Of a DNA stretch of 64,000 nucleotides, positions 9,270 to 61,800 are shown in pieces. Every line of letters starts with the position of its first letter. The stretch's first letter is position 1. This DNA is from Marsupella aquatica (lineage: Eukaryota; Plantae; Marchantiophyta). Made by a program: the position numbers and the translations under genes. The notes under the pieces are model-generated. The model searched no databases, had not been told where the DNA came from, and was given only the letters and a program-made list of their open reading frames with translations. The stretch is from positions 32,472,423 through 32,536,422 of the forward strand of contig OZ316891.1 of assembly GCA_973895155.1 (NCBI GenBank). The letters are read 5' to 3'.

Positions 9270-9820
9270 AGGTTGAATACGAGATGGGATACCGCGTATC
9301 CCATCTCGCATCCAACACCCTCTTTTTTAGTATTCCATCGGAACCTCCTAGCTGTTTGTTGACTCTAAATACAAAATGGGATACCACGTATCCCATTTCG
9401 GATTCAACTTTGTCTTTCAGTGCAGATTACTAGAAATTCCTGATGTTTAGGGTTTAGGGTCATTGGGGAGGATCGTTGCAAGAAGAGCCGCATTGGATGA
9501 TGTTGGATACGAACCGGGATACCCCGTATCCCATTTTGCATTCAACTCCCTATTTTTCATTCTTTGAATCAGACTCCAAGCAACTGTTGATGTTGGATGC
9601 GAAGTGGGATACCGCGTATCCCATTTCGCATTCAACTCCCTATTTTTTGTTCTTTGCAACAAACTCTAGGCAATTGTTGATGTTGGATGCAAAGTGGGAT
9701 ACCGCGTATCCCATTTTGCATTCATTTCCCTATTTTATGTTCTTTGCATCAGACTCTAGGCAATTGTTGATGTTGGATGCAAAGCGGGATACCGCGTATC
9801 CGATCTCGCATTCAACTACT
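9270..9820. repeat. ~90-bp tandem repeat with palindromic core GGGATAC-N3-GTATCCC (about 6 cores)
   Basis: TGATGTTGGAT recurs at 9498, 9588, 9678 and 9768. GAGATGGGATACCGCGTATCCCATCTC at 9281 is a palindrome with a 3-nt spacer. Confidence 0.92.
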
Positions 9821-9869
9821 TTTGAATGTTTACGCTCTTGTTCTTAGTGTGTCAATCTTTTACAGGAAC

Positions 9870-12800
9870 ATGTCAAACAAATCAAAGTCGTCTGGTTTGA
9901 CCGAGTCCTCACGGACATCCATCATCGATGAGATTTGGAAGAAGGACCTTTACACCGAGGAGAAACTTGTGAGAAATAGGTGGTACTTCAAGGATGCCCG
10001 AGCGATGGATATTCACAGAGCCTATAAAGGTCCAGCTATGTGGTTGGTTATAGTTAAGGGAAAAGACCATTGCCATTATGGATTAGTCGTGGACAGTGCG
10101 GAGGCAGATATCACCAACGCAAAAACAAAACAGCTGAAGAAGATTCCAATGTACCTTTGCATTCTTCCGAACAATGTCTTCATTGTAGTTGTCCTCAACT
10201 ACGAGAAACTTGATCGGGTCTCGATGAACACATTTCCTGATGACCCGATCTACAAGCTAATTTTGCAAGTTCCGAAGATTGAGGACTTTTCTTATTGGTG
10301 TTTGAAATTTGTCTTCAAGTCTTGGAGGGTTGTTGAGGATTTCACCAATGTTGCATATTGGTCCGTCGTTGGAGCTGACTTTGGCGTCAAAGAGCGTCCT
10401 CTGAAGTTGAAAGTGACAAAGCCTATCGATCTGGCTTCGAAGTCAGGGGAGATGTCTGGAACACCCTCGACAAAGGAGAAATCTGCCACAGTTTCTTTTA
10501 AGGAACCGGCAAAGAGGAAGCTTGCATATCAACTCTCCGGGGAAGGTTCTAAAGCAGCGGTGTCAGGAGAAGTTGCTGGCAAGAAGAAACTGGATCGATG
10601 TGACATCCAGAAGCGCGCACCATCTGCACTTGGAAGTGTTGTCTCATCTTTGGTCTTATCAATTTTACAGACACAGTCTCAGATTCCTTCAACTTTGTCA
10701 GGTGGGCCTTCTCTATCATCTAGGGGTGCGGTGAAAGAAAAGAAAAAAGATTCAACAGATACCACCACAGCTTTGCAGCGGGAAGAGACACTTGTGGTTT
10801 GTGAAGAAGTGTCTCGGTTGATGGAGATCAAGAGAGTTCAGAAGACAACAGTTATTCTGAAAATGACTAACCTACTTCTTGTTGACAATATTGACGATGA
10901 GAACTCAACATTGGTTTGAATAGTCGATCGGTTGCATGTGGAGAACATCAAGACTTTGATGAAAATGAATCCAACAAATTTCACCACGCCATTTGTCTAA
11001 TTTGTGATCCCCGAAGACTGCCCGACAGTGACAGACTGGGACCCAGAAAAGGCAAGGAGCTGGAGATATCGAGTGATTGGAGGTAATCACGGTGCTTGGG
11101 CTAAGAGAGAATTGTATCAGGCTTATGGGAGAGAGATCTTCAATGAACTCCAAGCTTGGGTGTATGCTGGTCTCACAAGGGAGGACATTCAGAAATTTAG
11201 CATCCAACATAATATTGATCAGGAGTACAGGAAAAAAATAAACAACATTGATCAAATCCAAACAATGCATAAGATTTTCCTTGCCAGAGGTATGGCAAAA
11301 ACCAAGGAGACTAGAGAAGCGTGTGCCATGGAGGTTTGCCACGACGGGTTTTTTCCAGGGGATGCCACAAGCCTGAAAAAGCATGAACCTCTCTTCCAAA
11401 TTGCGTTTAGGTCGGGTAAGGTCTGGGAACTCCAAGACCAGATCTTTGAGATGTGGAACAAGTTGGAGATCAAAGGGCAAAATAAGCAGAAGTCACCAAT
11501 CAAGAAACTGAAGAAAAAAGGAAAAGCACAGTCAATTCCAAAAGCTTTGAATAAGCTTGTAGGGGGCCTTACCCTGACACCTTGGAGAGCAATCCAGGGA
11601 ATTGAACACGACCAATTTTTGGAGTCCCTTCTTCTCCGAGTGAAGGACCGGATGATCTCTTTGGAGCAGATGGCAAAAGAAGCCGAGAGTTACAAGAAAC
11701 TTGTGAAAATCAGCAAGCTTTTTGTTCAGTTGTCAGGGCAGCCAGACTGGGCGACTTGCAAACAAATGTTTCCGAAAGAAATAGAATCTGCCAAGCTCGA
11801 AAGATGGAGTGGAAAGTTGTCCGATGTGGTATGTTCTCCCCTTCCATTGATTGGACTTTTCTATTTGTTTCTCATATGGTCGACTAATCTTATATGGTTT
11901 TAAGAATTTGGGTGGTTTCCTTCCTGGAATTCTTGTTTGAATGCGTACTAGTTGGATACGGGGTATCCCATCTCGGATTCACTTGTGGTTATTTGACGTT
12001 GGTGATGTTTCAATTTGGTTTTTGCTTGGTGGAATGCAAAGTGGGATACGGGGTATCCCATCTTGGATTCACTTGTGGTTTTTTTACTTTGGTGATGTTT
12101 CAATGTGCTTTTTGCTTGGTGGAATGCGAAGTGGGATACGGGGTATCCCATCTCGGATTCACTTGTGGTTATTTGACGTTGGTGATGTTTCAATGGGGTT
12201 TTTGCTTGGTTGAATGCAAAGTGGGATACGGGGTATCCCATGTTGCATTCGTTGTCCAGATTTGATTGTTTGAATACCTAAATGGTTGTCTCCCCATTGT
12301 CTTTTCTTTGGATTCTTTTAACAAGTTTGCGTTTGCAGTTGAAAGCTTTTTCAAAGAAGAAGAACAAGGATGCAATTGGTGCCAATTTGGTTGAGAAGCC
12401 TTCAGAGGAGCTGACTTCAAGTGTTATTCCCCCGGGGTTTAAGAATTATGTTCAAGAAGCGATTGAGAACTACAACCATCGTCGTGGGATTGAAACGGTT
12501 GAAGCAGAGTCGAGTGACCATCGATGGAAAAATGCTGATGGAAATTTCATCAGATATACATTGCATTGTGGAGATGTCAGGGCGCTGGATAAGTTTGAAG
12601 AGAAAAGGAATTACACACTTGCAATTGCAGACATTCCTTATGGATTCAATGCGCCTGGCTCTGAAAATGATGAGGTCTCATTTTCAGAGAGTGACATTGT
12701 GGTTGTGGTGAAGTGTTTTGCCAAGGTGACAAGTTCAAAGATGTGGAGGTTTGTTGTGATTCACTCTTTGCAGCAAACTTGGTCTGTGATGAATGCCCTG

Positions 12801-13448
12801 GGAAAAACTTGTAACGTAGGTGTCAAGGCTGGAATTTGGGAGAAGCCAAATGTACATGCTCATCCTTCCGGGAATCGATTGGCTTGGGCTTTTGAAAACT
12901 GGTCAATCGGATATTATCACGAGAGTGGTATTAGGACCAGAGACATGTACAATTTTGAACATGATGAGAAAAGGGTAAACATCATAAAAGTTCCTTGTGT
13001 TACAAAGAAATGTGTAACACCATTGTGGGAAATACTGAACCCTTACTAGAAGCCGATAGCTCTAGCAGATTGGTTCATTCAACATTTTAGTGAAGTAGGG
13101 GATTGGGTTGCTGATTTATGTGCGGGGAGTGGTTCGACCTCATGCGCTGCCTTGTTAGGGAAACGTCCGATGACAGCCGTGGAGCTCAGTTCAAGCCAGG
13201 TGGATTGTATCCGGACCCGACTTGTCACGCTTGATGAATTGTGGGACTTGAATGATGAAGCAACCAATGAGGGTACAGGACCTATGAGCTTCGAGGTTCA
13301 ACCACCTATTGGTGGTACTACGAGCACCCTCACCACTGGAACTTGCATCATTACAATGGCGGAGGAGAACGACAATGATGAGGATGAAGAGGATGAAGTG
13401 GAACATGAAGCTCCAACACTTGATCTTGGCTCATTCCTTGAGGTGTAG
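9870..13448 (+). pseudogene. ParB/Srx-like domain + beta-class amino (N6-adenine/N4-cytosine) DNA methyltransferase fusion; exons 9870-11828 and 12339-13448 (~1,020 codons; in-frame stops at 10917, 10998, 13047)
   Basis: ParB-like YRVIGGNHGAWA...AWVYAGL...QHN (~11070-11215). MTase LHCGDVR...LAIADIPYG (motif IV, ~12630), then NPY*KPIAL (QKP) and VADLCAGSGSTS...AVELS (motifs I/II, ~13110-13185), which is beta-class order. The phase-0 GTATGT...TTGCAG intron joins the frames exactly. Confidence 0.85.
11945..12250. repeat. 90-bp tandem repeat (4 cores, GGGATACGGGGTATCCC) inside the ParB-MTase intron
   Basis: Cores at about 11951, 12041, 12131 and 12221. Same palindrome and same 90-bp period as the 9270-9820 array. 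Confidence 0.92.
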
Positions 13449-13563
13449 ACTTTAGTTTGATTAGTTCTCTCATGTTGTATCTATTGATCCAAACTTGTGA
13501 AATATTGAGGAAGATTATGATTGTCCGACTATGTTCTTATTTCACAAAGTAATGTCTTTGCAG

Positions 13564-13983
13564 GAACCAAAGGTGGATTTTGTATTGAAACATGTTCTAC
13601 ATAGATTCTCACACAATACTTCTAGTGGGTTTCTTTTGGATAATAAAATATTGAGCCAACTTGAACCCGGTCAATATTTGGGTGATGAAATAATGGAATT
13701 TTACCCACAATTAATAACCAAGGAACATGGAGATCTGGCTCCCTCAGTAAACACATTATCCTTTTTTTTTTTACCCTTGGCTTGTTTCAAGGATTGAAAT
13801 AGAACCAGCTGAGACCTTATTGGAATCAATTCAAAAGATGCAAAATTATTACAAGCCACTATTTTCCCAAATTGAGATCATTCTCATGCCAATTCACATG
13901 AGCATGCACTGGAGTCTGGTTGTAATATGTTTGGATCGGATCGAATCTTTGATCAAAATGTATCATCTAGACTCTCTTGCCGG
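13564..13983 (+). pseudogene. Ulp1/SENP-like C48 cysteine protease fragment, frameshifted and truncated by an LTR insertion
   Basis: LEPGQYLGDEIMEFY ... ILMPIHMSMHWSLVVIC ... MYHLDSL gives the catalytic His and Asp. The Gln/Cys segment is lost at the LTR junction. Confidence 0.8.
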
Positions 13984-15552
13984 TGTCCGGGTGACCGTGT
14001 TTTCTGGTAAGAGCATGTTGGCTCTTATAAAGTTAACCTTGCATGCCCATAAGTTCTACACTAAAACCAAAATGATAACTTTTGTCAGAAGGGTGGTGGG
14101 TATTAAGAAAGGTTCAGGTGAAACTAATATACTATTAAATCCTACTTCACCATACTTGCGGATCAACACATCTCGGAAACTAATTTTTCTACGACATACA
14201 ATCCTAATATCTCAAAAAGAAAATGAAATAGGAATGTCATCTGGACTCCTATTTAGATCCATGACTTCAATAAAAGACAAAGATAATGCACTCCCACTCC
14301 TCTCGGTAAGACACTATTGGGTATACTATTGGTTCATTAGAACTCATAACAACAGCTGCAAATTGAGCTCCAAAGTGATAAGTTAAATGTTGCCTCATGG
14401 ATGGCTTGTCTAAAAAATGGACTCTAACCAAAAATGGGTTACGAAGGGGAAGATTAGGAATATCTCTCCCTCCTAGATTCATAATGACTCTCTTATTCCT
14501 TTGCTATCCGGGCCAAAGAATGCCCCACCCCTAAGTTCCCAAAGAGACCTTGTTCCCTAAGATCCCATCTATAAGTCTACCATTCATTCCTTTGCTATTT
14601 GGGCCAAAGGATGCCCCACTACTATATACATAAGGCAAAGAATAGAAGAGAAAGATGAGAGAAGAAAAGAGGATCGCTTCGACATGGAAATTATCAAAAT
14701 GTGAGAATGAAGAGAGAGTGTCTCTCACCACTTTATTTATATTGAATCCAAGAGGGCATGGATTACGCCCAAATGCTTGGATGAAAGCCAAATGGCACAC
14801 ATCCAACATAGGAATGTGTGCTAGTACTATTGCAATCAAAACAAATAATGCATGCAAGTAAAATAACTAATGCATGCACCTAAAATAATTTGTGCATGCA
14901 TGCATCTTGTGGCTTGCACATTTGCTCACCTTGCATGCGCATAAAACAACTAATGCATGCAAATAAAATAATTTGCATGCATCTAAAATAATTTGTGCAT
15001 GCATCTTATGGCTTGCACATTTTTTCACCTTGCATGTACATAAAACAACTAATGCATGCAAATAAAACAATTTGCATGCATCTAAAACAATTTGTGCATG
15101 CATCTTGTGGCTTGCACATTTGCTCACCTTGCATGCACATAAAACAACTAATGCATGCAAATAAAACAATTTGCATACATCTAAAACAATTTGTGCATGC
15201 ATCTTGTGGCTTGCACATTTGCTCACCTTGCATGCACATAAAGCAACTAATGCATGCAAATAAAACAATTTGCATGTATTTAAAACAATTTGTGCATGCA
15301 CCTTATGGCTTGCACATTTTCTCACCTTGCATGCACATAAAACAACTATTGCATGCTAATAAAACAATTTACACATGCATCCAAATAATTTGTGCATGCA
15401 TCTTGTGATTTGCATAGTTGCTTACCTTGCATGCACATACGTAATAGTCAAATTATTTAGTTACCCCGTAACAAAATATAAATCTAACCTATATACTTAC
15501 TAATATACTTAGTGGTAATGATTTCATCATGAATAATTGAATTATCACGACA
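13984..15552 (-). mobile_element. Putative 3' LTR of Gypsy family B
   Basis: TGTC...GACA ends. Begins where Ulp1 homology stops. A purine-rich tract (GGTAGGAGTGATA, minus strand) lies between the integrase stop and the TG. No partner LTR found in the window. Confidence 0.6.
14845..15440. repeat. 99-bp tandem repeat (~6 copies, ATGCATGC-rich) within LTR B
   Basis: AAAACAACTAATGCATGC-like unit at 14943, 15042, 15141, 15240 and ~15338. Confidence 0.92.
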
Positions 15553-18500: not shown

Positions 18501-18789
18501 GTCTCCTTTGTGAATTTATGGCCAATCTTAGTTCGATCTCTAAGACTGGTCTCCTTCCTTGCCTTCTCCAGAACCTCCTTAGCATTCAAAAGCAAAGGAA
18601 GTGTCGCTGGTCTCACTTTCTTGTCCACCATTTTGTACTTGGTGTTGAGCTCAAGAAATTGAGATAATTCACCATACAACTCATGACTGATTTCCATAAA
18701 AGTTTTACCCTCTGAAAGACCTTCAATTACTTCTTCCAAAGAGACTACCACTCCTTCTTCATCTAGAAGGCCTTCAATCTCCTCACATT
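15596..18789 (-). pseudogene. Gypsy family B pol: RT, RNase H, integrase (several in-frame stops)
   Basis: RT LPQGATNS/PFLDD. RNase H IVTIDSS...ETDCLPL...HIAGKDNPVANMLSR. Integrase HHCC (H..GH...CKTC), RADRGE, YNPEGNGKIER, GPF. Confidence 0.92.
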
Positions 18790-19721
18790 CACTACAACAT
18801 ATTTGACACTTTTGCAAAGGTATTTTTGTCAACGCTCTTGTATTTCCGATGGGCGGCGCTTTGCATATTTTGCGAATCAACCCGTATCGCAAATATAATA
18901 GCTAAAGCGCATTATATCGCTAATTGCAAAGTACGTGGTTTTGCAAATTTTACCAAAACGCGTCGAATGGAAAGGCGCCTTTCAAAGATGGAAAAATCGC
19001 TCGCCGACTCCGAAACTAACTCATGTAAATATTTGCAAAGAAGATTGGATTGAAAATGTTTTGCGATAGTAGTTGTTTGACAAGTTTAAGAATGTCGGAG
19101 GATGGAAGATTTGCAAAACGGTGAAAATATGAAATTTGTGATTGATTTTGCATCACAAGTTTGCGAAGAGTGTAGTATAAAAATATTGAGAAACGAGAAG
19201 ATTCATAGAAATTGCGAGTCCGGTGAGAGTTTGTGAGCTTCGCAAATTATTCACAAACTAAAAATTAAGATTATTGTGAGGTGAGACAATGAAGAGGGTG
19301 GATGGTCCAATATATGGATGGGGCAGGAGGGAAGAGGAAGGGAGGATAGAGGGAGGTACAATGAAGGATGGAAAAGGGAGGGAGTACAATGGAAGAGGAA
19401 GGAGGGAGGAGAAAGAGGAAGGGAGGAGGAGGGACAGACGTACCACGGAGGAGGGAAACACGAGAGTGAGAATGAAAATTATGGAATAAGTAGGAAATAA
19501 AGTTATATTGAGCAACAGAGGTTAGATAGAAAGTTGCATGTAAAATTCACAAGTGATCACAATAAAACAATACAATACATATGTCATGAGTATGACTCAT
19601 TCAAAAGTGAATGGCAAATATAAATATAGACAATCCTTTTTTTATATCACCAAACATGAACAAATCAAATATAACATGAACAAATGTCTAGGCTGGACCC
19701 AAGTGCATATAAATATGTCCC

Positions 19722-22700
19722 TCACACTTGGTCCTCATCGGCCTCAAGGTCATCTAGGTCTGATACAATAACATCTGGCTTCTCAAAAACAATGGAACGA
19801 GAACGTGGCACATAGGTGATGACAATTGACCACTCGGTGTCTAAGGGGTATGGAATGTAGAAACATTGCTCCAAGTGTGATGGGAAAGCAAATGGTTCTG
19901 ACGTTTGCCAATGAGATGCTTGAACACTAGTGGCACTTGTCTTCAACCGTGTAAACCCACTCTCATCTTGAAGTACAGTGCAATTTTGACCAACAAGGTT
20001 CACTTTGAACCACTTGCACTTGAAGACATATTCCTCAAACTTTGAATGGTTGTCATATGATACCACCAAGATCTCCTCTATCTTCCCATAGTGTGGCACA
20101 ACATCTCTAACAATGTTCCTGTCATGGCGGCTGCTTCTGGAGTCTTGAGAAAATTCCCCTTGAACTCCACAATCAAAAGTACGACCCCTCTTCTCATAAG
20201 GGAAGAAACCCTGAAATGAACAAAACCCACAAATTTTTATTACACTGTAAAAGATACCATTAATGTAATAATCATCAAAATATGACACCTATCCCTAAAT
20301 AGCCAAAACCCACATGGCCTATGGCATAATTATAGAAGCCAACATTACAGTTATGGATGTCATTAATGATAATAGAAAGTTTTTAAACAATAGAAATAAC
20401 TAATCAAAATAAGGTCTACATGAATTAATAGAGGAAGAAAGGTTAGGTACTAGTGGACCTGAAGTGTCTCCCTTGTGTCCACATAGCCGTCTTGGATGTC
20501 ACCACTCTCAAAGGGCCATGAACAATGGTCCGAACGTCATCTGTGATGGTAGGAAAGTGGGACACATCTCCTCCTTGTGTCACCATGTCATCCAACTCAA
20601 GCAACTTTTGCTTCATATACTCATGCATCTTAGGAAAAATTCTTGCTCTTTGACTTGTTCTCTTGGCATTCTCATAAAACTCTCTCCATTTCTCCATGAT
20701 ATTACTATTACTCAACATAAATGTTGTCAACTGTGACCACTCTGTTGATGTCAACATGCGTGTTTTTGTGGCACCTGTTAAACGGTCCTCCTCCTCTTCT
20801 CTTTCCTCCATCCAAGTACGTGGACAAGTAGGATCAATGGTGGCCAAGATGTTACTACAATAAATCATACTCTTTGCTGCCAAGTATCATGTAGCTATGC
20901 TTCCCTCCACCAGTGCACGGTTACGTACATAAGCCTTCAACACCGCCATGTAACGCTCAAGCCAATACATCCATCTACAATGCACTGGACCTGCAATGGC
21001 AACCTCCCGCACAAGATGCACAAGTAAATGAACCTGACAATCAAAGAAGGAAGGAGGAAGGGCTTTCTCCAACTTGCATACCACCTCAGCTGCCAATACC
21101 TCCATCCCAGGGATCTCTTCTACATATATCTCCTTTGAGCATATCCATCTCAACAAACGACCCAATGACCAGATGGCATCTTGCACTTCTTCACTCCCTA
21201 TACCTATAATTGCCACTGGCAATATATGCTGCAATAGGCGATGATAGTCATGTGTCTTCAGATATCGTGGCCACTTGTGATTGTCCTCCATCCCAAAAGC
21301 TTTTCGAAGGTTGGCACCATAGCCTGTAGGAAACCGCATCTCTCCTATACGGTTCCAAAATTCACGTCTTTGGCCAACACTCAACACCCAAGGAGCAGAA
21401 GGACGATTCTCCACACCTGTGATAGGATCAATTGTCACCCAAACATCTGGATGCATTTTCATCTCCTCGCATGCCTCCCTAAAATTAGTGTCCTTCTCCC
21501 CATAAAAATGCTTTATCAAAGCCTTCCCCCCACATTTCCCTCTATGTGCATGGGGTCTAAAAGATGGCGGATCTTCAACTCAGACCAATAGGGCAAAGTG
21601 GCTAGTATACTCCACCTGGTCAAACCTGTCCTATCAAAGGTGAAGGAATCATTTGGGTCTGCCACCCTATCAGCTAGTGACTTCCAATGTGCAAAACTTG
21701 TTGCATCAGGAATTTCACGCTCATCACCAAATGGCATGTCAAAGGAGGAGAATAGAAGTGGGTCAAACCTCATCTCATGCCCCATGGGAAGAAACTTTGT
21801 ATGCCCAATATAAACAATCTTTCTAATCCATGAACAATATGTGGCCATGTCCTCTAAGCTTGGGCCACAAGTAGAGTAAGCTTTGTACCCCTGAGTTTGC
21901 AATCCAGAGACAAAACCAAACCCTGCTTACATAGAAGAAATCAAACCATGCAAACTTTATGTTAGAGTTGTCACATGAGAAACATCAATAGGAACTACAC
22001 ATTATTGAAGGGTTGCAAATGGCATGGAAGTCATCTTACCAGGATAGTCACGCATTGTCCAACAAATGATCCCTCTCAATTGAAAGACACGTGGAAAACC
22101 TCCTGTAATTTTCCTGCCATCATATGCCCACACTCCATTCCATAATTTTTGAAGTTCTCCAACCAATAGTGCCAAGTAAGTGTCAAAGTTCTTCACCTTT
22201 TTTGGACCTGGGATAATCAAAGACAATAAAAGGAACCCCTTCTTCATGGATAGCCATGGTGGGAGGTTATAATTCATGACAACCACAGGCCAAACTGATG
22301 TAGGTTGCCCCTTTCCTCCAAGTGAATGAGGGCTAACTCCATCAGATGCCAATCCTAGCCTCACATGGCGAGGATCATGTGCAAAGTCTGGCCATGTTGC
22401 CTCAATATGTTTGTGAGCAGGGGAGTCAACTGGCAACCGCATGACACCAGACTCTGATCGATGAGTCTTATGCCATACCATCAACTCTGCCAAGTCAGAA
22501 CACCGATACATGTGCAACAACCGAGGAATGATGGGAAACCAACGAACAACCTTCCTTGGCACCTTCTTTGTTAGCATGTTGGGGTCATAGCGAGGCTCAT
22601 CACATGTTGTACATTGTGTCATGTTTGCATTGGCCCCATGAAATAACATGCAATCATTCACACATGCATGAACAATATGATATTCCATGCCAATAGATGA

Positions 22701-24541
22701 GAGAACACTCTTTGCCTCCTTCCAAGTTGCTGGCAACACATTCTCAGTGGGCAACATAAGGTCATGGCAAAGTGCAAACATATCAGATAACAAGACATTG
22801 CTTGCCTTGTGTTTGGCCTGTAGGTTCATCAACCCCAAGATGGCTGAAAGACGACTCAAACGAGCACCCTCATAGATAGGTGTTTGGGCATGTTCCTCTG
22901 CTTCTTCCCATTGGCGTTGTCCCTCAGGGGTATGTCTTGGGCGTGGATCATTGGGGGGCACCTGCCCTTCATTGGGAAGGTCATCACCAAGGTTGTCGGC
23001 ACCAAACCAATCAACCATAAAGTCATCCATGGCTCTATCCTGGTCATCAGTTACTTGTTCATCCGTCCAAGGTACCTCTTCATCAGGGTTACTGCTTCCA
23101 CTAGCACTTGATGAGGAGTGTGACTCTAATCCATGTCCTTCTTCTGGCATACCCATTTCTCGATATGTTGCTCTCAATCTCCGTGGTAACATATTTGGAG
23201 AGGGTCGCACATTCTAAAAACAAAGCAAACAATTGAAAGTTATATTGCAAAGAGAACACACACAAAAATGGGCTAGGGGTGTGCAAAAATGAAATAATAT
23301 TGGTTGTGGTGCAAATACAAAATGTGGCCAAAGGCATATGTAGTGTCCTTTGATATACAACATACCACCTATGACCCTTAACTTAACCCTAATCCCACTC
23401 ATAGTGAGTAAATAACTCATCCCCTGAGTTAATGGTCCTTGTTGCTACAACTAGGCAATGGTCATGATGATATGTCTGGCCATAAGGTGCTGGCGGAGGA
23501 CCCTCAATGAAAACCCACTCACAATTTTGCCTACGTTTAGGGCGAGTCCCCACGGTACTGTTTATGAAACCAACAATATTCCCAGTCCGTATGGGGTCCC
23601 CATCTATGACACGCTGCTCACTATACCTTCTAGTGTTTCCATCAAAAGTATCCATGTCCAATGCATAAGTCTTCCACTCAGGGTGTTGTGCAAGGATCAT
23701 GTTCCAATATCTTCTGTTGTAGATGGGTCCACCATAAGGAAACAAAGTAGGCCCCTCTCGGCCGCGTCCACCTCTACCACTCTCGGCGTCCACAATGATG
23801 TCCTCACAGGCAAAAACTCCATAGCCATGTCTATCCCCAAGTGTGGAAGGTTTGATAACCCAACGTCTACCCCAAACCTCTACCTCCGCACCGTAGGAAA
23901 GCTGTTGTGGCAAACCAAAAGTCTCAGGATCCCAGTCCTTGATGACAGGGACACATCTGCCAGTGAACTCACAATCACCCCACCGACCCGTAACCACTGC
24001 CTTGTACAAATCAGTATCCCCTCGGGCCTGCCTCTTGGAACGCTTTCTCCCTCTTGGGACAATAGCCTCAACCCCAACTTCCCTAGGACTGGTGGGCCTT
24101 GCCGCTAGACCCAAGGCTTTTGAGAATGCATTGCCTATAGCATCTAGAACACCTTGTGATGGGACATAGGGTGCTTGTGCCGCAGGTCTAGGCCTATTGG
24201 ATACCTATTCCACCGAAACCAAAACAAACAAAAGTAGGTGTGAAATTGCAAACCTTCAACCATTGAGTAATGGGAATAGGGTAGGAAAACTAAGGCATAA
24301 CACTTACCATATGAGATGAAGAAGCCCCTGCCGTATGACGTCCACAACGCCCATATCTCTCAATATGTTGGGCACATATGTAAGATTTTTGGGAAACCTG
24401 ACCCACACATCTGGAACATTCACAAAGTTGACGGGGTGGACTGCGAGGAGGAGGTGCGGTCGTGTGATGTTGAGGTGGAGGTGGTGTATCTTCATCAGAG
24501 GAGGACGAGTCTGTGGTGGAGATTTCAAAAGATGAAGACAT
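19722..24541 (-). pseudogene. CACTA transposase (TnpD-like): transposase-associated Cys/His exon 24541-24308, then Transposase_21 (from 23213), DUF4218-like and DUF4216-like exons; a few stops
   Basis: HACVNDCMLF..CTTCDEPRY, RLGLASDG, SVWPV..YNLPPW, DYPG, LDPMHIEGNV, KTHDYH, HLLVHL..GPVH.RWMY..ER, FKCKWF, EPF..P. Confidence 0.92.
23389..24541 (-). CDS. SET-domain protein (~349 aa): exon 24541-24308 + exon 24204-23389
   Basis: IKPSTLGDRHGYGVFACEDI, GNIVGFINS, QNCEWV and VATRTINSGDELFTHY are SET signature segments. The phase-0 GTAAGT donor and AATAG acceptor keep the frame, with no stops. Confidence 0.8.
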
Positions 24542-26216
24542 ATCCCTTGTAACAAGATATAATTAAAATGGGCATGTTATGACCAAAACATACCACAAAA
24601 TGATATAAATCAAAGTTCCCAAATAATGATGACAAGAAACCCAAACCAAAATGACCATAGCAATAAAAAAGGTACCTTTATGAGACCCGGGCTCAGCAGT
24701 GCCAATAGGTCTTGTGGCTCTAAGATAATTAATGAACCCAATCTGAAAGTATGAGGGAAAAGCTGCAACCATTCCATGTATATGTAAGCACAATAATCTG
24801 GACCAGACAAGAACAAAAAACCCTATATACATGTCCCCTTTATACATAGTGGCAACCAAAAGTGTTAAGTACATGAAAGGAACACTTTAGCCGATCATGC
24901 AATGTTTACCTTTCAGATGCTCGGGCTCTCACAATGCATATGCATTAGTATCAAATCATCAAAAAGTGCCGCACCCTGCAAGCTATCATATATTCCTCTC
25001 CTTTGTTAGCAAAACCCACGCCAATCCCCTTTTGATTCATAAACCCAATGAACCTCTCTTAAACCCAAAAGGCTGCAATATAAATCTCATGAAACCTTGC
25101 TTTGTCTTATCCAAACCTTCAACCCCAAACCGCATCCTACCTATTAAACCTAAATCTGACTTACACACAAACCCAAACCTTTCTTCAACCCTAGAGACCT
25201 TTCTATTTAAAAACCCCAAACCCTAAAACCCTAAACCCAAACCTTACTTATTTCTTGTAAACCAAATCCCACACCTTTATTATTTCTTCTAAACTAATGT
25301 AAACCCAAACCTTAGCCTAAACCAACACCATACATAACCCATTAACCTGAAATCTGCCTAACCCTGCAAACCCGCCTTCAACTATTATCTAACACCCAAA
25401 ACATGGCCAAAAAGCATTCCAAATATGAGTATAGAGGGGTCCACTTCACCTTTGAAAAAAACCCTTTCAAATGAAGCCAACATTCCCCCAGGACGAGTTG
25501 CCAATGTCTTGCGAAGCCGCTTCCTTCGCAAATACCATCACAAATTAGAATTGAGGTTTGCGAAGCTGCTGCTTTCGCACGACCTTCAGAAAAACAGAGC
25601 CCGAGAGCATTTCTACGAGAGAGCGAAGGTGTTGCAAAGCCTTTCACGTCGCAATGGTTTCGCAAAATTGAGAAACTATATGCGAAACAAGAAGAATCGC
25701 AAATTGCAAAACGGGTTGCTTTGCAAGTCTTTCCCGCTTGTACTTTTGCACTCGGCCGCGGCGTACTCAGCGGCATTTGACAAATTTCAAGCGTAGGGAG
25801 GGAGAAGGGAGCTCGCGCGCGCTCGGGGGGTGGCTTGGCTATGGATTCCAGTGGAGCAAATGGAGGTGATGGGGCAGGGGTGAGTGACAGTGGCAATGGG
25901 AATGAAGGCAATGGGGAGCAGGAGAGGAATCGATGGACCGATTTGATGGCTGAGCACCTCAATGCAGCACAGTTGAGCCACTTAGATTTGACTACACCAG
26001 CAAGGATTGCTTCTTTGAGTGCAATCCTTGGGCAAGCCTTGCAAACGGGAGTAGATGTAGGGAACATTGCAAGGGAGGAGGAGCAAAGGAGTGCAGCTCA
26101 ACAGAAGGCAAGAGAGAAGAAGCGTAAGAAGGAGGAGAGGGCCAAGGTAGGAGTAGTCTCACCTGCTGCCCTAGAAAAGAAGAGGAGGAGAGAGGAACGA
26201 GATGAGATAAGAGCAC

Positions 26217-29200
26217 TGTGGTGCGTCCCATGGCTCCCTAAACCCAAGAAACCCCCCCAGCACAAGCCGATTCCCACAGGTTTTGCGCTTGGCGGGGCCG
26301 TTTCCGTGGCTTAGCGGCATGGGACGCTGCTAACTTCTTCCTCTACATCTATTAACATTTTACACACATATACTGGACAGATCCTTCATCGGGTCATGAG
26401 ATATGAAGCCGGCCTACTCTAGGCCTTCCCTTATCTTTCTCTCCTTCTGGTTAGGTATATTTGGATTTCGCCGCCGGAATGATCCCCAATAGGCTTGGTT
26501 AAGCCGCTAAGACCTCTCTCAGCTCGACACATCCAACTCTCACTCCCTTGCTTACCTTCCTTTCCCTATTAGTTGATGTGGGCACTCTTCACACAAGTTA
26601 ATGCGACACACAAATAGTAAAATGACTCCTTCTGACTGAGTCATACCATGCACTTGCCATACAAACAGTACATCTCATACACAAGCTCTGCGAACTAAGC
26701 CGTGAGGCCAACTCTATTCAGCTCTTAGGCATGAGGAAACATGAATATACACAAGGTCACGGTATGACTAACCGAGAGCTTCTCTTACTACTTGATCCCA
26801 GCCCGGCTGGTGCAAACTAAAAACTTGCTAAAGAAGAGGCCCTGAGCTCCCCGCAGCCTAGGTATTTATCCTGGTAGCGGATCCGCCTAATTCTTTGCAG
26901 CGTAAGCCTAATCTACCTAACAGTAATCTACCTGTCCGGAGCTACCTATGTACAGCAAGGCAAGGGCACAAGTGTTGCTCCTACCAGTGGAACCGCAATC
27001 CCACTAAGCTAAGTGTCAGGGCCACTCCTGGTCCTGATCCTAATCTTAAACCTGGAGATCAGCGCCCGGCCCACTCACGCCTCCTACCTCCACGTCCGCC
27101 CTTCCTAAAAGGAACGGCGCCCTTGCACCGTCACGATACCGGTGGTGGATCCTCAATGGACGCCCCCAATGCTTCCTCCTCAGCCACTGCCGTTGGCCCG
27201 CCTACTGACAGATTACCTGCCCTTGACCGAGTCAACTCTCCCTCGGCCTGACTGGGTCCATCTTCGGCTTCGGCCTCGACACCGGCCTCGGCAATACCCA
27301 CGGCTTCGGCTTCAGCCACTCCCACGGCTTCGGCTTCACCTTCTTCTAGGGTAGTTGGATCCTTAGCCGTGACCCTGTCTGGGGTCGGTGCTGGGTCTAC
27401 CTCCTTGGTCACCACGGCCTGTGGAGTCGTATTACTCCTTGACCCAGAAGGTTTCCGCTTCTTCTTCATTGCCGGCTCGGCAGCTGGTCCCTTCCCCTTC
27501 CCACTTACTTTCAGCACTGGTGCAGGTGGCGCGGTTTGTTCTTCGGCCAGTACCACTCCTGGTAACTGGTTCGCCCCAACGGGAGATGGACTTGCTGCAG
27601 CTAAGCATTTAAATACTGCGGCTTGTTTCTTTAGCCGCTCTGTTTGGTTGTCGGCCCGCCGCTGTAGGTTCTCCATCTTCCTCGTGATTTCCTCCAACTC
27701 CTCTTGGGTCTCATCCAGGTCCTTACGTGCCCCCTCCAGCTCTCTGTGGGCTTCCTCCTGCTCTTTGTGGGCTTCTTCCAATTCCTTCTTCAAGGTAGCC
27801 CTCTCCTCCTGGGTTGCTCTTAGCTCTTTGTCGAGCTCTGTCACGATTTCAGACTCCATTTTATCCATCTTGGCATAAGTCTGACCGAGCATATCGTCCT
27901 TCTCCTTTAGGTCGGCTTTGAAGCTGGCCGTTAGGGATGCAAGCTCTTGCTGCAGCGCAATAATCCCTTGATAGGATTTCCCTAACTCGGCCTCCTTCTG
28001 CTGAAGGGCTCCGCGGCTTTTCTCGAGCTCCCCCTTCAACGCCCATTCCTTTCTTTGGGTCTCCGCCATGACCCGGTTGTTGACTGCTATATGGGCCTCC
28101 TCTGCGTTTCTCAGCTCCTTCTTCCATTTCTCCCTGTCCTTGATTGCATCGGCCAATTCTCCCTGGGCCTGAGTCAGTTTATCCTTGATAATCTGACTAT
28201 CCGCCTGCGCTATGTCCAACTGCCCCTGCATGATATTTAGCTCATGCCGTTTAATCCGTAGCTCATCTTGGGCTTTCTTGGCTGTCCTTAGATCTTCAAT
28301 CTCGGCTTCCATCCTCCTAAGCCGCCGGATGACCTCGTCCTTCTTGCTTCTCTCTAAAGCCACCGCTTCTTCTAATTGGTGCTTCTCCAACTGCTCCCTA
28401 TGGAAAAAGGGTCCTACCTCCAACTCCTCCCCAAAGATGCCGAGCGCAAGTTCCCCACACATCTCACCATACTCCATGGCTCTATTCTTAGCGTAGGTGG
28501 AGTAAGTAGAAGTGATCGGCATCACCCAACGCGGCCTCTGCTCCCAAGCCGTCTTGCGGATCTCTTCAATCGTGGCTAGAGGTTTGCTTCCTTTTTTGGC
28601 TAGCCGCCTGATGTCCTCCGGCCAATCTCCTCCTGGTAAATCCTTTTCCCTAGCCAGGGCTGCCTCCTCTCCCTGCCTGATTCGCTCCTGAAATTCCTGC
28701 ACTGTCTGTTTTATGCCGTCAAAGCTCGGGGGAGCAACATCTGGTGGAGGAGACTCAGGGCTACTCTGCTGGTTGGGGTCCCCTCGTACTACCCTTGGAA
28801 GTGTGGGGATAAACCAGCCACAGGTCCTTACTCCTGGAACGTGATGGTCCGACCCATAGCCGGAGTTATCATGGCCGCAGTCCTCCACTGCCTCCTCTAC
28901 TTCTTCTACTTCCGGCTTCTCCCTCTCTTCTTCGTTGGTAGGAGCTTCCAGCAATTCTGCCTCAGATTCAGAGCTTGAGACTCCGGTAGAGGGGTTTTCC
29001 CTTCTAAGTCTGCTTAAGTTGACCTCTGGGGCAGTGTCCTGCATTGTTGCCGTTGTCGTTGTCGTTGTCGTTGCCGATCTCCTTTCTTTCTCCAGTAGTT
29101 TCAGCAGATTCTGCATGCCTGGTTGCTGCATCGGCAAGTTTTCCTTCCTTGGCTTAAACACCTGCTCAATCGTAGGGCTAACAGGTGGTTGAGGCTTTTC

Positions 29201-30793
29201 TGCTACCAGCCTCGGTGCTGGAGCTTCCTCGGGTGCCCTTACCTGCAGGGGAAGTACTGGGGCAAAGGTCTGACCTCTGGCATACCGGCACAACAGCGGC
29301 ATGTGATAGCCAAGCCGCGACACGCTCCCCATGCCGATTACCTGCTGCTCCTCCTTTAGGATCTTCTTCAATTGGTTGAGGAGGTAGCCGTTGTAGTCCC
29401 GGCTTGGGTCTGGCCTTTCTGCCAGATAGACTTGTGCCTTGCCGATCTCCGCTCTCGGCAAGTTATAATGCATGGTTACCCGCAAGAAGTCGATCATCTC
29501 TCCTATGTGCGGGTTGGTGCAGGTGTTTCTGAAGAAGCCATTCTTCGTTGATGGTCCGGGAAACGACCGGAACTCCTTGTCAGGCAAGGTCTTCCTGGTA
29601 TCAACCTTGGTCTTATTGCCTATCGGCAAGCCAAACACTTCGGCAATTACCTTGGGAGTAAGATAGAAATCCTTCCCATATATTCTCGTGCAATTGGTCT
29701 CGGGTTCCCATGACCCCACGAATTCTAATAGGTCTGAATCCGGTACCTCCGGCTTCAGCCATGGTAATCTTACAAAGGCCTCTAAGCCAGATCCGGCCAT
29801 GAAGCCTTGGTACATCTTGGTCTGCATGGCCGTAAAGCATGCATCCTCCTCCCTTGCAAAATGTAGTTGCACCTCCACCGGTAGAGTTGCCGCCCAGCCC
29901 TTCCAGGTGTCATCCCTGGTTGGAATGGCTTTAATGGGATCGACCTCCTCTACTTCGGCTTCTCCTTGCCTCCTGCTCTGCTGTTCGGCTGGCTTCGTTG
30001 GTGCCGCCGACCTCGTTCTTTTGGCCGGGGTGGTTTCATCGTTGACGGCTCCCTTCCTCTTCATCTCGGCTGCCGTGGAGGTTTCTCCTAACACCGTTGC
30101 CCGGTTCCACCTTTCTGTGCTACCCTTCAATTCCCAGTGTATGTCGTTGCAGTTCTTGATGGCCTCTCGAATGCCGATGATTTTGTCTTTGCAAAACAGA
30201 AGATCGTCGAGCTGATTGGAAGTAGGCGTCCACAAGAACTCGGCCTTGATAAGTTCGCCTCCTAAGAAAGCCGTTTTCTGCAGCTCCCACAATCGAGCGA
30301 GCTCCTATCATTCTCGAGCTGCCCTTTCTGATTCTTCGTCCTTGTAAGTCTTGATGTACTCAGTTGCCCGTTCGAACAGGCATCCCCAGAAATGTGCCGC
30401 TTGATTGACGTTGCTCATACGCTCCTTAGGTCGATCGTCGGTATCTACTCTCTCCCCGAGTGCTTGCCTAAATAGCTGACAGTAGTTGGCCTCCCGTAGT
30501 CGTCTGCCTAGTTCGTGCTCGCAAATGAGCCACAATCTTCTGCGAGCGCTCCTTACCCCTCTCCTCTTCCGGCCCTTCCTCCCGTTGATCCTTCCCAGCC
30601 GCCGATGCTTAGCGCGCCCTAACCCTAATCGAGTTTTCACCCCCAGTGTTTTTACCTCCGGCCTCGGCCCGGGTTCCATAGTTGCCCCTAATTATTTATA
30701 TTTTCTTGTTTTGTCCCTATGCTAAGGTGTTTCCAGGGTGTATTCTTGCTTTACCTACTTAACTGGCCGAGTGATTCCTGGCTAGGCATCACA
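26217..30793 (-). mobile_element. Solo LTR of Gypsy family A (4,577 bp)
   Basis: TGTGGTGC...GCATCACA ends. Perfect 5-bp TSD AGCAC at 26212-26216 and 30794-30798. No gag/pol or PBS adjacent. Confidence 0.96.
27131..30679 (-). pseudogene. LTR-encoded protein, copy 2 (1,053-aa open frame plus an in-frame N-terminal part behind TGA-TAG)
   Basis: ORFs 30308..30679 and 27131..30292 are in frame. The stops correspond to CGA CAG in copy 1. Confidence 0.87.
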
Positions 30794-33074
30794 AGCACAG
30801 CGGGAGGAGCAGCGAAAGAAGGAGGAAGAGAGGAAGAAGCTGCCTATGATTGCCTTGATCGAAGGCATTCCTACTGAACTGGCCTACACCGGGGCAAAGA
30901 GCACTATCAGGCTTATGGTGCGCTCCAATTTTGCACGAGGAAGTGGGGGAAACTCAGCAAGGCAGACCAGAAGAAAGGAATGAGTCAAATCAAAGATTCA
31001 TTTCGAAACGGAGCAAAGATTGATGAACAGTGGCTTGCAGATAGAATTTCCAATTCAATGTCTCAAGCACGGTACCATGATAGGAAGAAGGTAAGGGTCT
31101 ACCTGGCAAACTTGGAGGAGTACAGAAACATGAGGAGGCCACTGCAATTCACTGAGGACATGTGGAATGCCTTTTACAAAGTGGAGGTGCAGATGAGAGC
31201 TGCCAGGAACCTTCTCTTCTGGAAGGAGATGGAAACCAAGGCACAGAAGGCCGGGAAGTCCGACCGAGAGCTCAAGGCAATGGCTGAGAAAGTGTCTCAC
31301 ATGCAGCACATTGTGGATGAAGTGGGTGCACCACCCCAAAAATTCATCCTTGCAGCTGAGCGAGTCAGCAAACGGCCCAAGACCACGCACAAGATGGGCC
31401 AAGGTGGACTTCCCGGCCTCAAAGCACACTTTGTGAGTGGGCCCTCTCCTCTCCTCCCCTGCTTCTGTTTCCTTGCTTTCAATTGCTATCCAAACCTGCA
31501 ATGCCCCCCTGCATACCTCTTGTTTCTTTCTTACGGCTTGCCTTGTACTTTAGGTCACCCTGACACATTGCGTGCCTTAGAGATTTCTCGGAATTTTTTA
31601 AAAACAGAGTTTGCAAAGCTTTTGCGATGCGGGTTGCTTTGCAAATGTTTCGCAAAGTCTATCATGGCATTTTTTAAAGTTGTAAATGCGAAGCTATTGC
31701 GAAATAATTCGCTTCGCAAACTACTTCGCAAACAGCCAATTTATTTGAATTTGCGAAGTGGGGAGTTTTGCAAGTGTGTATTATGTTTAAAAAAAACCGC
31801 TAAGGGTTATTGAGCCCAGTTTTGTGTTAGGGGGCACCCTATTAGCACCTCCATGCATTTTTCTTGGGTTTATAGCATATTAACCTCGATTGATTTTGGT
31901 TTTGGAATGTTTGGTTGTGGTAGTATAAGAGGTACCGCAGGAAGATAACAGCAAAAGAGATGGAGATAGGATCTGCGCATGGAGCCAAACATCTCTTTGA
32001 CTTGGTTGACGCAGAGTTGGCGACTATAAGTGCATGTATCCCCTTCAGTTTTTCCCACCCAATCCACTTATCTTTTCATTCCGTAAACCTAAACCAATTT
32101 GGCGTTGTGCTGTGCAAACAGGATGATGAGGATGCCAGTGATACCAGCAGCACCGATGAGAACAATGAGGGGACCACGACAAAGGGGCCCAAGGTAGGAG
32201 GGAGTAGTGGATCTGGACCAGTAGGAGGAGTTTCCCAGCAGGAGGGGGAGGAAGAGGATGAGGACGAGGACAAGGAGGAACCAGATGTGGAGGAGCAGCC
32301 AGCACCACCTCCTGTGCCACGTCCGGATCGTCGCAAGAGGGACAAGGGGAAGAGGCCGGCGACAAGGAGTAGGAGGACCCCATTCTAGAGCTTGGTGGTG
32401 TAGTGCCTATGGGATGCCCATTTACTTAGTGTAGTATATAGTTTTGATATGGGTAGTCTTATAGGGACCTAGCTTGTCATATGACACCCATCTAGGGTTT
32501 AGGGTTTAGGAAACCCTAATTTTTGTGTACCTATCAATTTTCTATAAAGCAATTTTGATTCAGACCTCATTCTCCGTGTTGGACAACAAGACCCCAACCA
32601 TAATTCAAAACTCTAAATCTAAACCCTAGCCTCAAGACATCTTGCGAAACCTATGCGAACAACCCAATTCGCATATTTACCATATTGAAGGTATCGCAAA
32701 CATTATGCAAACCACATACGTTCACAAAAATGTGAAGCCATGTTCATGGCATAACTACCATTAACTTAATATCGCAAGCCGATTACCAAACTTCTGGGAT
32801 TGCAAATATTTAACTGCTTGATTATTATCGCAAGCCTCTCGCGACGCCCACGGAGTTGCTTAAATGTGAGTCCTTTGCGATTCTATTAGTGTCGCAAGTT
32901 GCGAAGGCGTTGCGAAGGTCTTGCAAAAGACCGGATGCGAACCTTTGGGCTTCGCAGTTTGCGATTCTATTGCAATGCGCGATACTTCGCAAAGGCGAGT
33001 TTTGTTTTTTGATTTCCTTTGTTGTTTGCGATGCTTTCAAGTTCGCAAAAGGTGTAGGTAGTGTTGTAGTGATT

Positions 33075-43500: not shown

Positions 43501-44188
43501 GGTTGCGTCGGTAGCTTCCACACCGCCAGGCCGTCGAGTCGGTGCCCAGGCCGGGACGAGAGGTCGAGTCGGTGCCTAGCACTTTCTCGCTCCCTTGTTG
43601 GGGTTCTGAGAAATGCGGCCCTTAGGGCTGTCTTGCATGTACTGGAAGGTCCTGCGCACCTACTTCCATGGCAAGTCCAACAACGATCGTAAGGCGGGAA
43701 CCAAGGGAAGGGATTGTTGCATTTCCTTGGGTATATAGTAGCAAACGCATGAGCTAACATCGCACTTGGAGCGGTCACGCAAATCAACGACGAACTGACA
43801 GTGCAGGGTTCATGAAGTACTGAAGGCAGACACAGTGCAAGGTACTCAAGGCTTTTGCCCGATGTGAGTGCAAGGCTAAGTCGCGGCACTAGATCACAAT
43901 GACGGAGACCAGAATAAGTATTCAAGCTGATCGAGAATCAGACTGGAGGTCCTCTTTTCCGATCTCACTCTCTGGGGTGTCGGGGCCCATCACAACAACT
44001 GCCAACAATCACAGAGACGAGAATTAGTAAGCTGGCTGGACCTCTTCTTTTCCAATCTCAGCAGACTATTTGAACTCTTCTCTGATACTGCGGTCTGACA
44101 GTTCTCATCACTGAGAGTTTCTCGAGCCACCTGCTGTATAATTATTATTCTCAATTGCATCCCAGGGACGACGATCAGGAAGCTGATC

Positions 44189-58255: not shown

Positions 58256-58506
58256 AACTCTAGGGTCAATCTTGAAATTAGGACATGTATCAGTATTTAT
58301 AAGAACATACCGTCATTATGGACTTCTCTCATAAATGACTAACTCCAGAGTCAATACTAAAACTAGGATATATCAGTGTTTACAACAACATACTGTCATT
58401 ATGGACTTGTTGCATAAATGACTAAATATAGGGTCAATCTAAAAATCACGATATATCAATGTTTACAATAACATATCGTCATTATGGACTTATTGCATAA
58501 ATGACT
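58256..58506. repeat. ~83-bp tandem repeat, 3 copies
   Basis: GTCATTATGGACTT...CATAAATGACT units start at 58256, 58341 and 58424. Confidence 0.88.
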
Positions 58507-58604
58507 ACTTATAGAGTCATTAAAGAACCCAAGAGATATGAAGATTAAAATACTCAATAGTTATTCTAGACACCGGTCATAATTGTAGAGTCATTGATAT
58601 AGTT

Positions 58605-61793: not shown

Positions 61794-61800
61794 GGTTTAG
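60985..61800 (+). pseudogene. N-terminus of an LTR-encoded protein, truncated by telomere addition
   Basis: ORFs 60985..61179 and 61240..61800 are in frame across one TGA. AIRFW...YFFNGDKYIGFWEAL resembles family A AAHFW...LLFCKDKIIGIREAI. Confidence 0.6.

What the first reader, a model, noticed from the sequence alone, without database searches (positions are those of the whole stretch)
23213..24541. CACTA transposon with a SET-domain exon as an alternative to the transposase
Seen: exon 1 (24541-24308, CECSRC...HIERYG transposase-associated motif) ends at a phase-0 GTAAGT donor. Two phase-0 acceptors follow: 24204 gives an uninterrupted SET-domain protein ending at 23389, and 23213 gives the Transposase_21 frame. 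Established: En/Spm elements use alternative splicing, and SET domains are protein-lysine (often histone) methyltransferases. Inference: one promoter yields either transposase or a SET protein with the same N-terminal targeting module, a possible self-directed chromatin or anti-silencing effector. The SET frame is intact while the transposase has stops. FINS replaces the usual FINH, so activity is uncertain.
Basis: partly seen in the sequence, partly recalled or inferred. Interest (0 to 1): 0.8.

Follow-up and report, generated by a model that had tools for sequence, protein, structure and literature searches.

The report
Bryophyte transposon carrying a methyltransferase exon
A cut-and-paste transposon family of mosses and liverworts carries a conserved exon for a SET-fold protein between the first coding exon and the body of its transposase gene; it is predicted to splice the shared first exon onto either one, likely giving the element its own lysine methyltransferase, which may mark chromatin in the element's favour.

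Summary
Observation confirmed. A CACTA element (18790-33071, TIRs, 3-bp TSD) has a zinc-finger-like coding exon, a phase-0 SET exon (PF00856 above cut-off; confident SET-fold model) and a phase-0 transposase exon. The layout and all three splice sites recur in Sphagnum-type metagenome copies. Gene models from Calypogeia and five Sphagnum species join exon 1 to SET, and Riccia models place SET before Transposase_21. The SET exon is under purifying selection like the transposase (dN/dS about 0.2). Ser in place of the usual His is family-wide (0 of 83 have His), and the active Legionella SET LegAS4 also lacks that His, so it is not decay. 'SET intact, transposase broken' is chance-level. Not shown: any RNA junction (no RNA run; no gene model joins exon 1 directly to the transposase), catalysis (no post-SET region), substrate, or targeting by exon 1. 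SET-carrying transposons are known (HarbingerS and MuDR in oomycetes, red-algal Plavaka); a land-plant CACTA sharing its transposase exon with SET was not found in ten literature searches. This scan noted the same layout earlier in peat-moss DNA. New variant of a known kind; interest 0.55.

The parts
33062..33071 (-). 5' terminal inverted repeat CACTACAACA; 3-bp TSD (AAT on the - strand) just outside
   Evidence: the same terminus starts 11 Sphagnum-type loci printed
18790..18799 (+). 3' terminal inverted repeat CACTACAACA with the matching TSD
32600..33071 (.). 5' subterminal cluster of TTCGCAA/TCGCAA-type motifs
   Evidence: 18 motif hits in 32501-33000 vs about 0.1-0.3 per 500 nt in the rest of the window
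18800..19300 (.). 3' subterminal motif cluster
   Evidence: 9 hits in 18501-19500
25450..25850 (.). internal motif cluster in the likely divergent promoter between the transposase/SET unit and ORF2
   Evidence: 12 hits; 4 hits at the matching place of L028
24546..24675 (-). predicted 5'-UTR intron upstream of the first coding exon
   Evidence: GT and AG at similar places in Sphagnum-type loci; no RNA evidence
24308..24541 (-). first coding exon, 78 aa, CxCxxC...H...G zinc-finger-like motif resembling the N-terminal transposase-associated domain; phase-0 donor GTAAGT
24205..24307 (-). intron to the SET exon (103 nt)
   Evidence: gene models
23389..24204 (-). SET exon: basic linker plus divergent SET domain (271 aa and stop)
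23214..23388 (-). U-rich spacer: predicted SET 3' UTR/poly(A) region and the 3' splice site of the transposase exon
   Evidence: poly(A) site not located
22040..23213 (-). first transposase body exon (PF02992), phase-0 acceptor
19722..21922 (-). rest of the transposase (PF02992, PF13960, PF13952) with a frameshift near 21526, a stop at 20886-20884 and a further intron near 20459-20211
25841..26216 (+). 5' part of ORF2, a second, divergently oriented gene of the element (no family assigned)
26217..30793 (-). solo LTR (TG...CA, 5-bp TSD AGCAC) inserted in ORF2; not part of the CACTA family
   Evidence: absent from L003 and L028
30794..32388 (+). 3' part of ORF2, with an intron that holds a further motif cluster (about 31550-31820)
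   Evidence: dN/dS 0.35; no Atlas hit

Best explanation
This is a bryophyte CACTA lineage that carries a conserved, purifying-selected SET exon inside its transposase gene; the shared zinc-finger exon is predicted to splice either to the near acceptor (349-aa zinc finger-SET protein) or to the far acceptor (about 1,120-aa transposase), and the SET protein likely acts as a SAM-dependent lysine methyltransferase that would mark chromatin to keep the element expressed. Shown: the layout, its conservation, selection on the exon, the SET fold, and conserved SAM/lysine-channel residues. Inferred: alternative 3' splice-site choice, with a poly(A) site in the 175-nt spacer for the SET message (about 0.75); catalytic activity (about 0.65); histone substrate (about 0.55 if active); anti-silencing direction and self-targeting through exon 1 or through ORF2 and the TTCGCAA clusters (whole chain about 0.3). 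The window's own copy is dead.
For: Layout TIR-ORF2-exon 1-SET-transposase in metagenome loci: SET follows exon 1 in 20 of 21 loci with enough sequence, and transposase follows the SET end in 24 of 24. Donor GTAA in 44 of 44, SET acceptor in phase in 24 of 28, transposase acceptor TAG at the same place in 22 of 24 (one more shifted by a codon), although the intron sequence has diverged. No phase-0 donor-like site is shared inside the SET exon between the window and L001. 97 of 120 listed CACTA transposases carry the N-terminal PF13963 domain; exon 1 matches a profile of that region better than shuffles (5, 0 and 0 of 1000 shuffles reach the scores of the window, Calypogeia and Sphagnum exons), so the transposase needs exon 1 to have it. 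Gene models from Calypogeia and Sphagnum jensenii, troendelagicum, balticum, compactum and fallax join exon 1 to SET at the predicted point. dN/dS 0.18-0.24 for SET vs 0.12-0.20 for the transposase. Model pLDDT 91.7, with SET methyltransferases as top folds. Counterparts of five of six LegAS4 active-site residues are kept.
Against: No RNA run was listed and no contig among the joints shown cleanly skips either intron. All 8 clusters of 222-707-aa proteins that hold exon 1 continue into the SET exon; none goes straight to the transposase. A Met at codon 8 of the transposase exon is kept in 24 of 24 loci and could be a separate start. The protein ends three residues after the last Tyr, with no post-SET/cSET segment and no counterpart of LegAS4 Tyr231. 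No SET subfamily is close (15-23% identity, TM 0.43-0.48), so the substrate cannot be read off. The metagenome loci are near-identical copies of one family (pS about 0.06), so they add one independent lineage, not dozens.
Confidence: 0.5

Rival explanations
1. Two genes in tandem, no alternative use of exon 1: exon 1 always goes to SET, and the transposase starts at its own Met (codon 8 of its exon) from a transcript that reaches the 23213 acceptor from the upstream UTR exon or from its own promoter.
For: Met8 is kept in the window, in 24 of 24 loci and in Riccia model P0118. A likely UTR donor exists at 24675. No gene model joins exon 1 to the transposase. Split-gene layouts occur among Arabidopsis EN/SPM families (PMC13547354, passages).
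Against: The seven codons before Met8 stay in frame with N-[IV]-R-P-S kept through third-position changes. Riccia model P0281 has Gln at the Met position and P0257/P0282 have no Met there. The transposase would lack the N-terminal domain that 97 of 120 relatives carry. Missing transposase models are expected if repeats were masked before annotation (inference).
Confidence: 0.2
2. The SET protein is active but its substrate is not a histone: it methylates the element's own transposase or ORF2 product, or a host silencing protein, to tune transposition.
For: No histone-specific subfamily is close; a shared N-terminus could bring SET and transposase together (inference); SET enzymes with non-histone substrates are well known (recalled).
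Against: The nearest solved relatives by profile, LegAS4/RomA (E 4e-8), methylate H3K14 (10.64898/2026.05.29.728679, passages). The linker carries a basic NLS-like patch (RGRKRSKR).
Confidence: 0.15
3. A pseudo-methyltransferase: the SET fold binds histone tails or SAM as a decoy or reader, shielding the element from host writers without catalysis.
For: No post-SET/cSET segment; His replaced by Ser in 79 of 83 family members and by Asn in 4.
Against: The residues conserved across 84 divergent members are the catalytic-type ones: GxG Gly 77 of 77, Tyr258 75 of 84, Asn293 76 of 83, Tyr346 69 of 72. LegAS4 lacks the His and is active.
Confidence: 0.12
4. A passively captured host gene fragment that drifts neutrally (Pack-CACTA-like cargo).
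For: Among recent copies pN/pS is 0.80 for SET; this copy is dead.
Against: dN/dS about 0.2 between lineages, as for the transposase; the same position is held down to about 39% identity in Riccia; no host SET family is close; near-neutral tips are expected of dead copies and hold for exon 1 too (0.86).
Confidence: 0.03

Closest known systems
Maize En/Spm and Arabidopsis EN/SPM3 (TnpA/TnpD by alternative splicing; PMC13547354 and bioRxiv 10.64898/2026.08.24.746577, passages read)
   Same: CACTA termini, 3-bp TSD, Transposase_21 core, subterminal motif clusters, and a second protein predicted from the transposase transcription unit; TnpA has sequence-specific anti-silencing activity.
   Different: TnpA is a DNA-binding accessory factor, not an enzyme; here the alternative product has a SET fold and sits between the first coding exon and the transposase body; 'SET domain' occurs 0 times in the main text of both papers. 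A separate divergent ORF2 is also present.
Red-algal Plavaka elements with PAG2 (bioRxiv 10.1101/2025.02.11.637652, passages read)
   Same: An EnSpm-related DNA transposon carrying a PF00856 SET accessory gene proposed to modulate chromatin; activity untested in the passages seen.
   Different: PAG2 is a separate gene with a fused N6-adenine methylase domain in a three-gene cassette; here SET has no methylase partner, shares an exon with the transposase, and lies in a land-plant CACTA proper.
HarbingerS and MuDR elements of oomycetes with SET genes (PMC12730594, Introduction read; Repbase Reports originals not seen)
   Same: DNA transposon that has incorporated a SET methyltransferase gene.
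   Different: Other superfamilies and host kingdom; no shared-exon arrangement is mentioned in what I read.
VANDAL/VANC anti-silencing of Arabidopsis (via passages)
   Same: Element-encoded accessory protein with cis motifs in non-coding parts of the element, if the anti-silencing reading is right.
   Different: VANC is a separate MuDR gene acting on DNA methylation; demonstrated, whereas this is inferred.
Legionella LegAS4/RomA SET domain (PDB 5czy, 8sr6, 8swi)
   Same: Best profile match among solved structures (E 4e-8); also lacks the His after the SAM-binding Asn; minimal SET without cysteine-rich pre/post-SET.
   Different: 23% identity; it has an ankyrin domain and a cSET helix, both absent here; no evidence of direct descent.

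Membership tests
CACTA (En/Spm) DNA transposon | CACTA terminal inverted repeats | tested here: met
   CACTACAACA at 33071 (-) and 18790 (+)
CACTA (En/Spm) DNA transposon | 3-bp target-site duplication | tested here: met
   AAT on both sides
CACTA (En/Spm) DNA transposon | Transposase_21 with DUF4218 and DUF4216 | tested here: met
CACTA (En/Spm) DNA transposon | N-terminal transposase-associated domain (PF13963) | tested here: inconclusive
   no Pfam hit for exon 1; my own profile from 49 angiosperm transposases gives 7-12 bits, above nearly all shuffles, but segments were chosen by the CxCxxC motif
CACTA (En/Spm) DNA transposon | TnpA-type second protein | tested here: inconclusive
   ORF2 is conserved but has no Pfam or Atlas assignment
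SET-domain protein | PF00856 above gathering cut-off | tested here: met
   25.7 vs 22.4 bits for the exon; full-length Calypogeia model 21.7, Sphagnum 22.9
SET-domain protein | SET fold | tested here: met
   pLDDT 91.7, pTM 0.87; Foldseek top hits SETD8, LegAS4, MLL1, EZH2, G9a
Active SET lysine methyltransferase | GxG, SAM-binding Asn, active-site Tyr residues | tested here: met
   mapped to LegAS4 Tyr135, Ser158, Tyr159, Asn181, Tyr220 through the alignment and the residue list
Active SET lysine methyltransferase | His of the NH(S) motif (motif recalled) | tested here: not met
   0 of 83; also absent from active LegAS4, so not a strict requirement
Active SET lysine methyltransferase | post-SET/cSET segment closing the SAM pocket | tested here: not met
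   protein ends YEWD; no counterpart of LegAS4 Tyr231
Active SET lysine methyltransferase | methyl transfer to a lysine | not testable with these tools
   needs an assay
Spm-type alternative splicing of one transcription unit | both junctions seen in RNA | tested here: inconclusive
   no RNA run listed; gene models support only exon 1-SET
Plavaka PAG cassette | PAG2 = N6-adenine methylase fused to SET | tested here: not met
   only PF00856 in the SET protein

The most novel reading that the evidence does not exclude
An old lineage of land-plant CACTA transposons writes its own histone mark: a splice switch decides whether the shared zinc-finger exon becomes the head of the transposase or of a minimal, His-less, post-SET-less methyltransferase that is guided to the element and puts down an activating or non-canonical lysine methylation against host silencing. 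It would be an enzymatic anti-silencing system of a plant transposon, wired into the transposase gene itself.
Probability: 0.3. Interest if true: 0.8.

Novelty: new variant of a known kind. Interest (0 to 1): 0.55.

Why it matters
The plant transposon anti-silencing factors in the papers I read (VANC, TnpA) are sequence-specific regulators; transposon-borne SET genes are reported from oomycetes and red algae, with no activity test in the passages seen. This family gives a small, well-folded, multi-copy candidate in bryophytes, where model plants can be transformed, so the question 'do transposons write histone marks for themselves?' becomes testable. It also means that many 'SET domain-containing proteins' annotated in Sphagnum (one 90% cluster has 360 members) are transposon cargo and not host chromatin genes.

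Full report
Observation. On the minus strand, 24541-24308 encodes 78 residues with a CECSRC...H...G motif and ends at ATG|GTAAGT. An acceptor at 24204 continues the frame through 271 codons to a stop at 23391-23389; an acceptor at 23213 continues it into the transposase. The SET exon passes the Pfam SET cut-off (25.7 vs 22.4 bits); downstream pieces hit Transposase_21, DUF4218 and DUF4216; exon 1 has no Pfam hit. The element runs from 33071 to 18790, with CACTACAACA termini and an AAT duplication, and sits inside a Gypsy element. It has a second, divergent gene (ORF2) broken by a 4,577-bp solo LTR, and four clusters of TTCGCAA-type motifs: both ends, the likely shared promoter and the ORF2 intron. 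The transposase has a frameshift near 21526, where contigs of related copies in the laid runs lack two bases, and a stop at 20886-20884. This copy is dead.

It is a family trait. The SET exon found 42 relatives among 1,636 candidates; all 10 with an organism name are bryophytes: Calypogeia fissa (72%), Sphagnum (55-81% over the aligned parts) and Riccia sorocarpa (39%). A profile found 130 representatives at 50% clustering. Of 20 looked up, 8 carry an organism name: Riccia (5), Calypogeia (1 cluster) and one distant Ginkgo protein among them, besides one further Riccia entry. In 80 metagenome loci fetched with a Sphagnum exon 1-SET protein, the order TIR, ORF2, exon 1, SET, transposase recurs: SET follows exon 1 in 20 of 21 loci with at least 400 nt downstream, and transposase follows the SET end in 24 of 24. 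These loci were selected by exon 1 or SET, so they cannot reveal copies lacking both, and they are close copies of one family. Riccia gene models also place SET residues directly before Transposase_21 (P0118, P0281, P0305, P0312), which carries the linkage down to about 39% identity.

Selection. Pairwise NG86 between the window and the loci gives median dN/dS 0.18 (SET residues 104-271, 23 loci) and 0.24 (70-271, 22 loci), 0.20 for exon 1 (45 loci), 0.12-0.20 for three transposase pieces (11, 7, 5 loci) and 0.35 for ORF2, at dS 0.74-1.29. Among the loci pN/pS is 0.80 for SET, 0.86 for exon 1 and 0.61 for the transposase, as expected of dead recent copies. So the exon was maintained in active elements.

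Splicing. The donor begins GTAA in 44 of 44 loci where exon 1's end was read; the SET acceptor is in phase in 24 of 28; the transposase acceptor is TAG at the same position in 22 of 24, 21 nt before a Met, although the intron letters differ from the window's. The codons between acceptor and Met keep N-[IV]-R-P-S with third-position changes. No phase-0 donor-like site is shared within the SET exon or spacer between the window and L001, so exon 1 has the nearest donor that fits. 97 of 120 listed CACTA transposases carry PF13963, and exon 1 resembles that region: against a profile from 49 such proteins it scores 7.0 bits (5 of 1000 shuffles reach it), and the Calypogeia and Sphagnum exons 12.0 and 11.0 (0 of 1000 each) (segments were picked by their CxCxxC motif, which favours the match). 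Gene models of 343-351 aa from Calypogeia and five Sphagnum species join exon 1 to SET at the predicted point; how far RNA supported them I could not see. Against: all 8 clusters of 222-707-aa proteins holding exon 1 go on into SET, none straight into the transposase; no RNA run was listed; the conserved Met8 and a likely upstream UTR intron allow a separate start, though Riccia paralogs lack that Met. I put alternative use of exon 1 at about 0.75.

The enzyme. With 84 sequences the core folds confidently (pLDDT 91.7, pTM 0.87) and matches SETD8, LegAS4, MLL1, EZH2, ATXR5 and G9a about equally (E 1e-7 to 5e-6, TM 0.43-0.48, 15-23% identity); the Atlas agrees (0.97 to a streptophyte SET cluster that may be this family itself). 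The His of the usual NH motif is absent from all 83 members covering the column (Ser 79, Asn 4). The best solved match by profile, LegAS4/RomA (E 4e-8), reads YINFS, also without His, and methylates H3K14 (10.64898/2026.05.29.728679, passages). Of the six residues that paper mutates to inactivate LegAS4, five have counterparts by my reading of the alignment: Tyr135 to Tyr235 (Tyr or Phe in 81 of 81), Ser158 to Thr257, Tyr159 to Tyr258 (75 of 84), Asn181 to Asn293 (76 of 83), Tyr220 to Tyr346 (69 of 72). The sixth, Tyr231 in the cSET helix, has none: the protein ends at residue 349. That missing lid is the real doubt about activity; Trp348 (Trp or Phe in 47 of 72) might replace it (inference). 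A small residue two places before the last Tyr would leave room for multiple methylation (recalled Phe/Tyr-switch rule). The substrate cannot be inferred.

Mechanism. Most likely one transcription unit makes either a zinc finger-SET protein (near acceptor, polyadenylation in the spacer) or the transposase (far acceptor, skipping SET). Selection on an enzyme carried by a selfish element implies a benefit to the element; countering silencing is the simplest, by analogy with TnpA and VANC. Whether exon 1 targets anything is untested; ORF2 and the motif clusters are an equally good route.

Prior art. SET genes in HarbingerS and MuDR elements of Phytophthora (PMC12730594: passages and Introduction; the Repbase Reports it cites were not seen); SET in Helitrons, and PAG2 (DNA methylase plus SET) in red-algal Plavaka (10.1101/2025.02.11.637652: passages; supplements closed), which PMC12730594 places near EnSpm. 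Alternative splicing of Spm TnpA/TnpD (PMC13547354 and 10.64898/2026.08.24.746577: passages; Masson 1989 seen only as a reference). Ten full-text searches (seven of them aimed at SET or anti-silencing in CACTA or bryophyte transposons) returned no description of a land-plant CACTA with a SET exon; the library lacks most subscription papers and Repbase. Two earlier notes of this scan describe the same layout in peat-moss DNA; they are not independent evidence.

Verdict. A real, conserved, selected feature: a new variant of the known 'DNA transposon with a SET accessory gene', distinguished by host lineage, superfamily and the shared-exon wiring. Splicing and activity remain predictions. Interest 0.55; 0.8 if the self-directed histone-writing switch is confirmed (probability about 0.3).

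Noticed in passing
window 9272-14400: A second repeat-bounded gene cluster with 90-bp palindromic tandem repeats (9272-9828, 11950-12265), a DNA methylase fragment (PF01555 N6_N4_Mtase, 25.9 bits vs cut-off 26.7, at 13050-13445, preceded by a 255-codon frame) and a Ulp1 protease (PF02902, 13751-14383); likely another transposon carrying a prokaryote-type DNA methylase, recalling PAG2 of Plavaka. Ends not found.
   Followed up: partly
window 26217-30793 and 3068-7402: A 4.3-4.6-kb LTR (TG...CA; solo copy with 5-bp TSD, other copy next to a primer-binding-like site and gag) that itself holds a 1,057-codon coiled-coil frame (27131-30304, -) with no Pfam family above cut-off; an LTR with a long internal ORF is unusual.
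   Followed up: partly
P0001, P0003, P0042; window vs loci L001-L080: The moss (Sphagnum) and leafy-liverwort (Calypogeia) proteins are 62% identical and nest together in the tree, while liverwort Riccia proteins are far off; dS between the window and Sphagnum-type copies is only about 0.75-1.3. This may mean horizontal transfer between bryophytes or unevenly sampled old paralogs.
   Followed up: partly
P0355 (Ginkgo Gb_21150), P0295 (Calypogeia, 503 aa): Distant members of this SET family with other N-termini; may be domesticated copies or other elements, and suggest a range beyond bryophytes.
   Followed up: no
window 25841-26216 and 30794-32388 (+): ORF2, a conserved divergent gene of the element with no Pfam or Atlas match; candidate TnpA-like binder of the TTCGCAA clusters.
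   Followed up: partly
window 61800-64000: Telomeric TTTAGGG-type array: the window ends at a chromosome tip.
   Followed up: no
window 44099-44767 and 50353-50862 (+): Host-gene fragments: BAHD-type transferase (PF02458) and cytochrome P450 (PF00067).
   Followed up: no
window 14798-15439 and 58285-60540: Tandem arrays of 99 bp, 83 bp and 577 bp.
   Followed up: no
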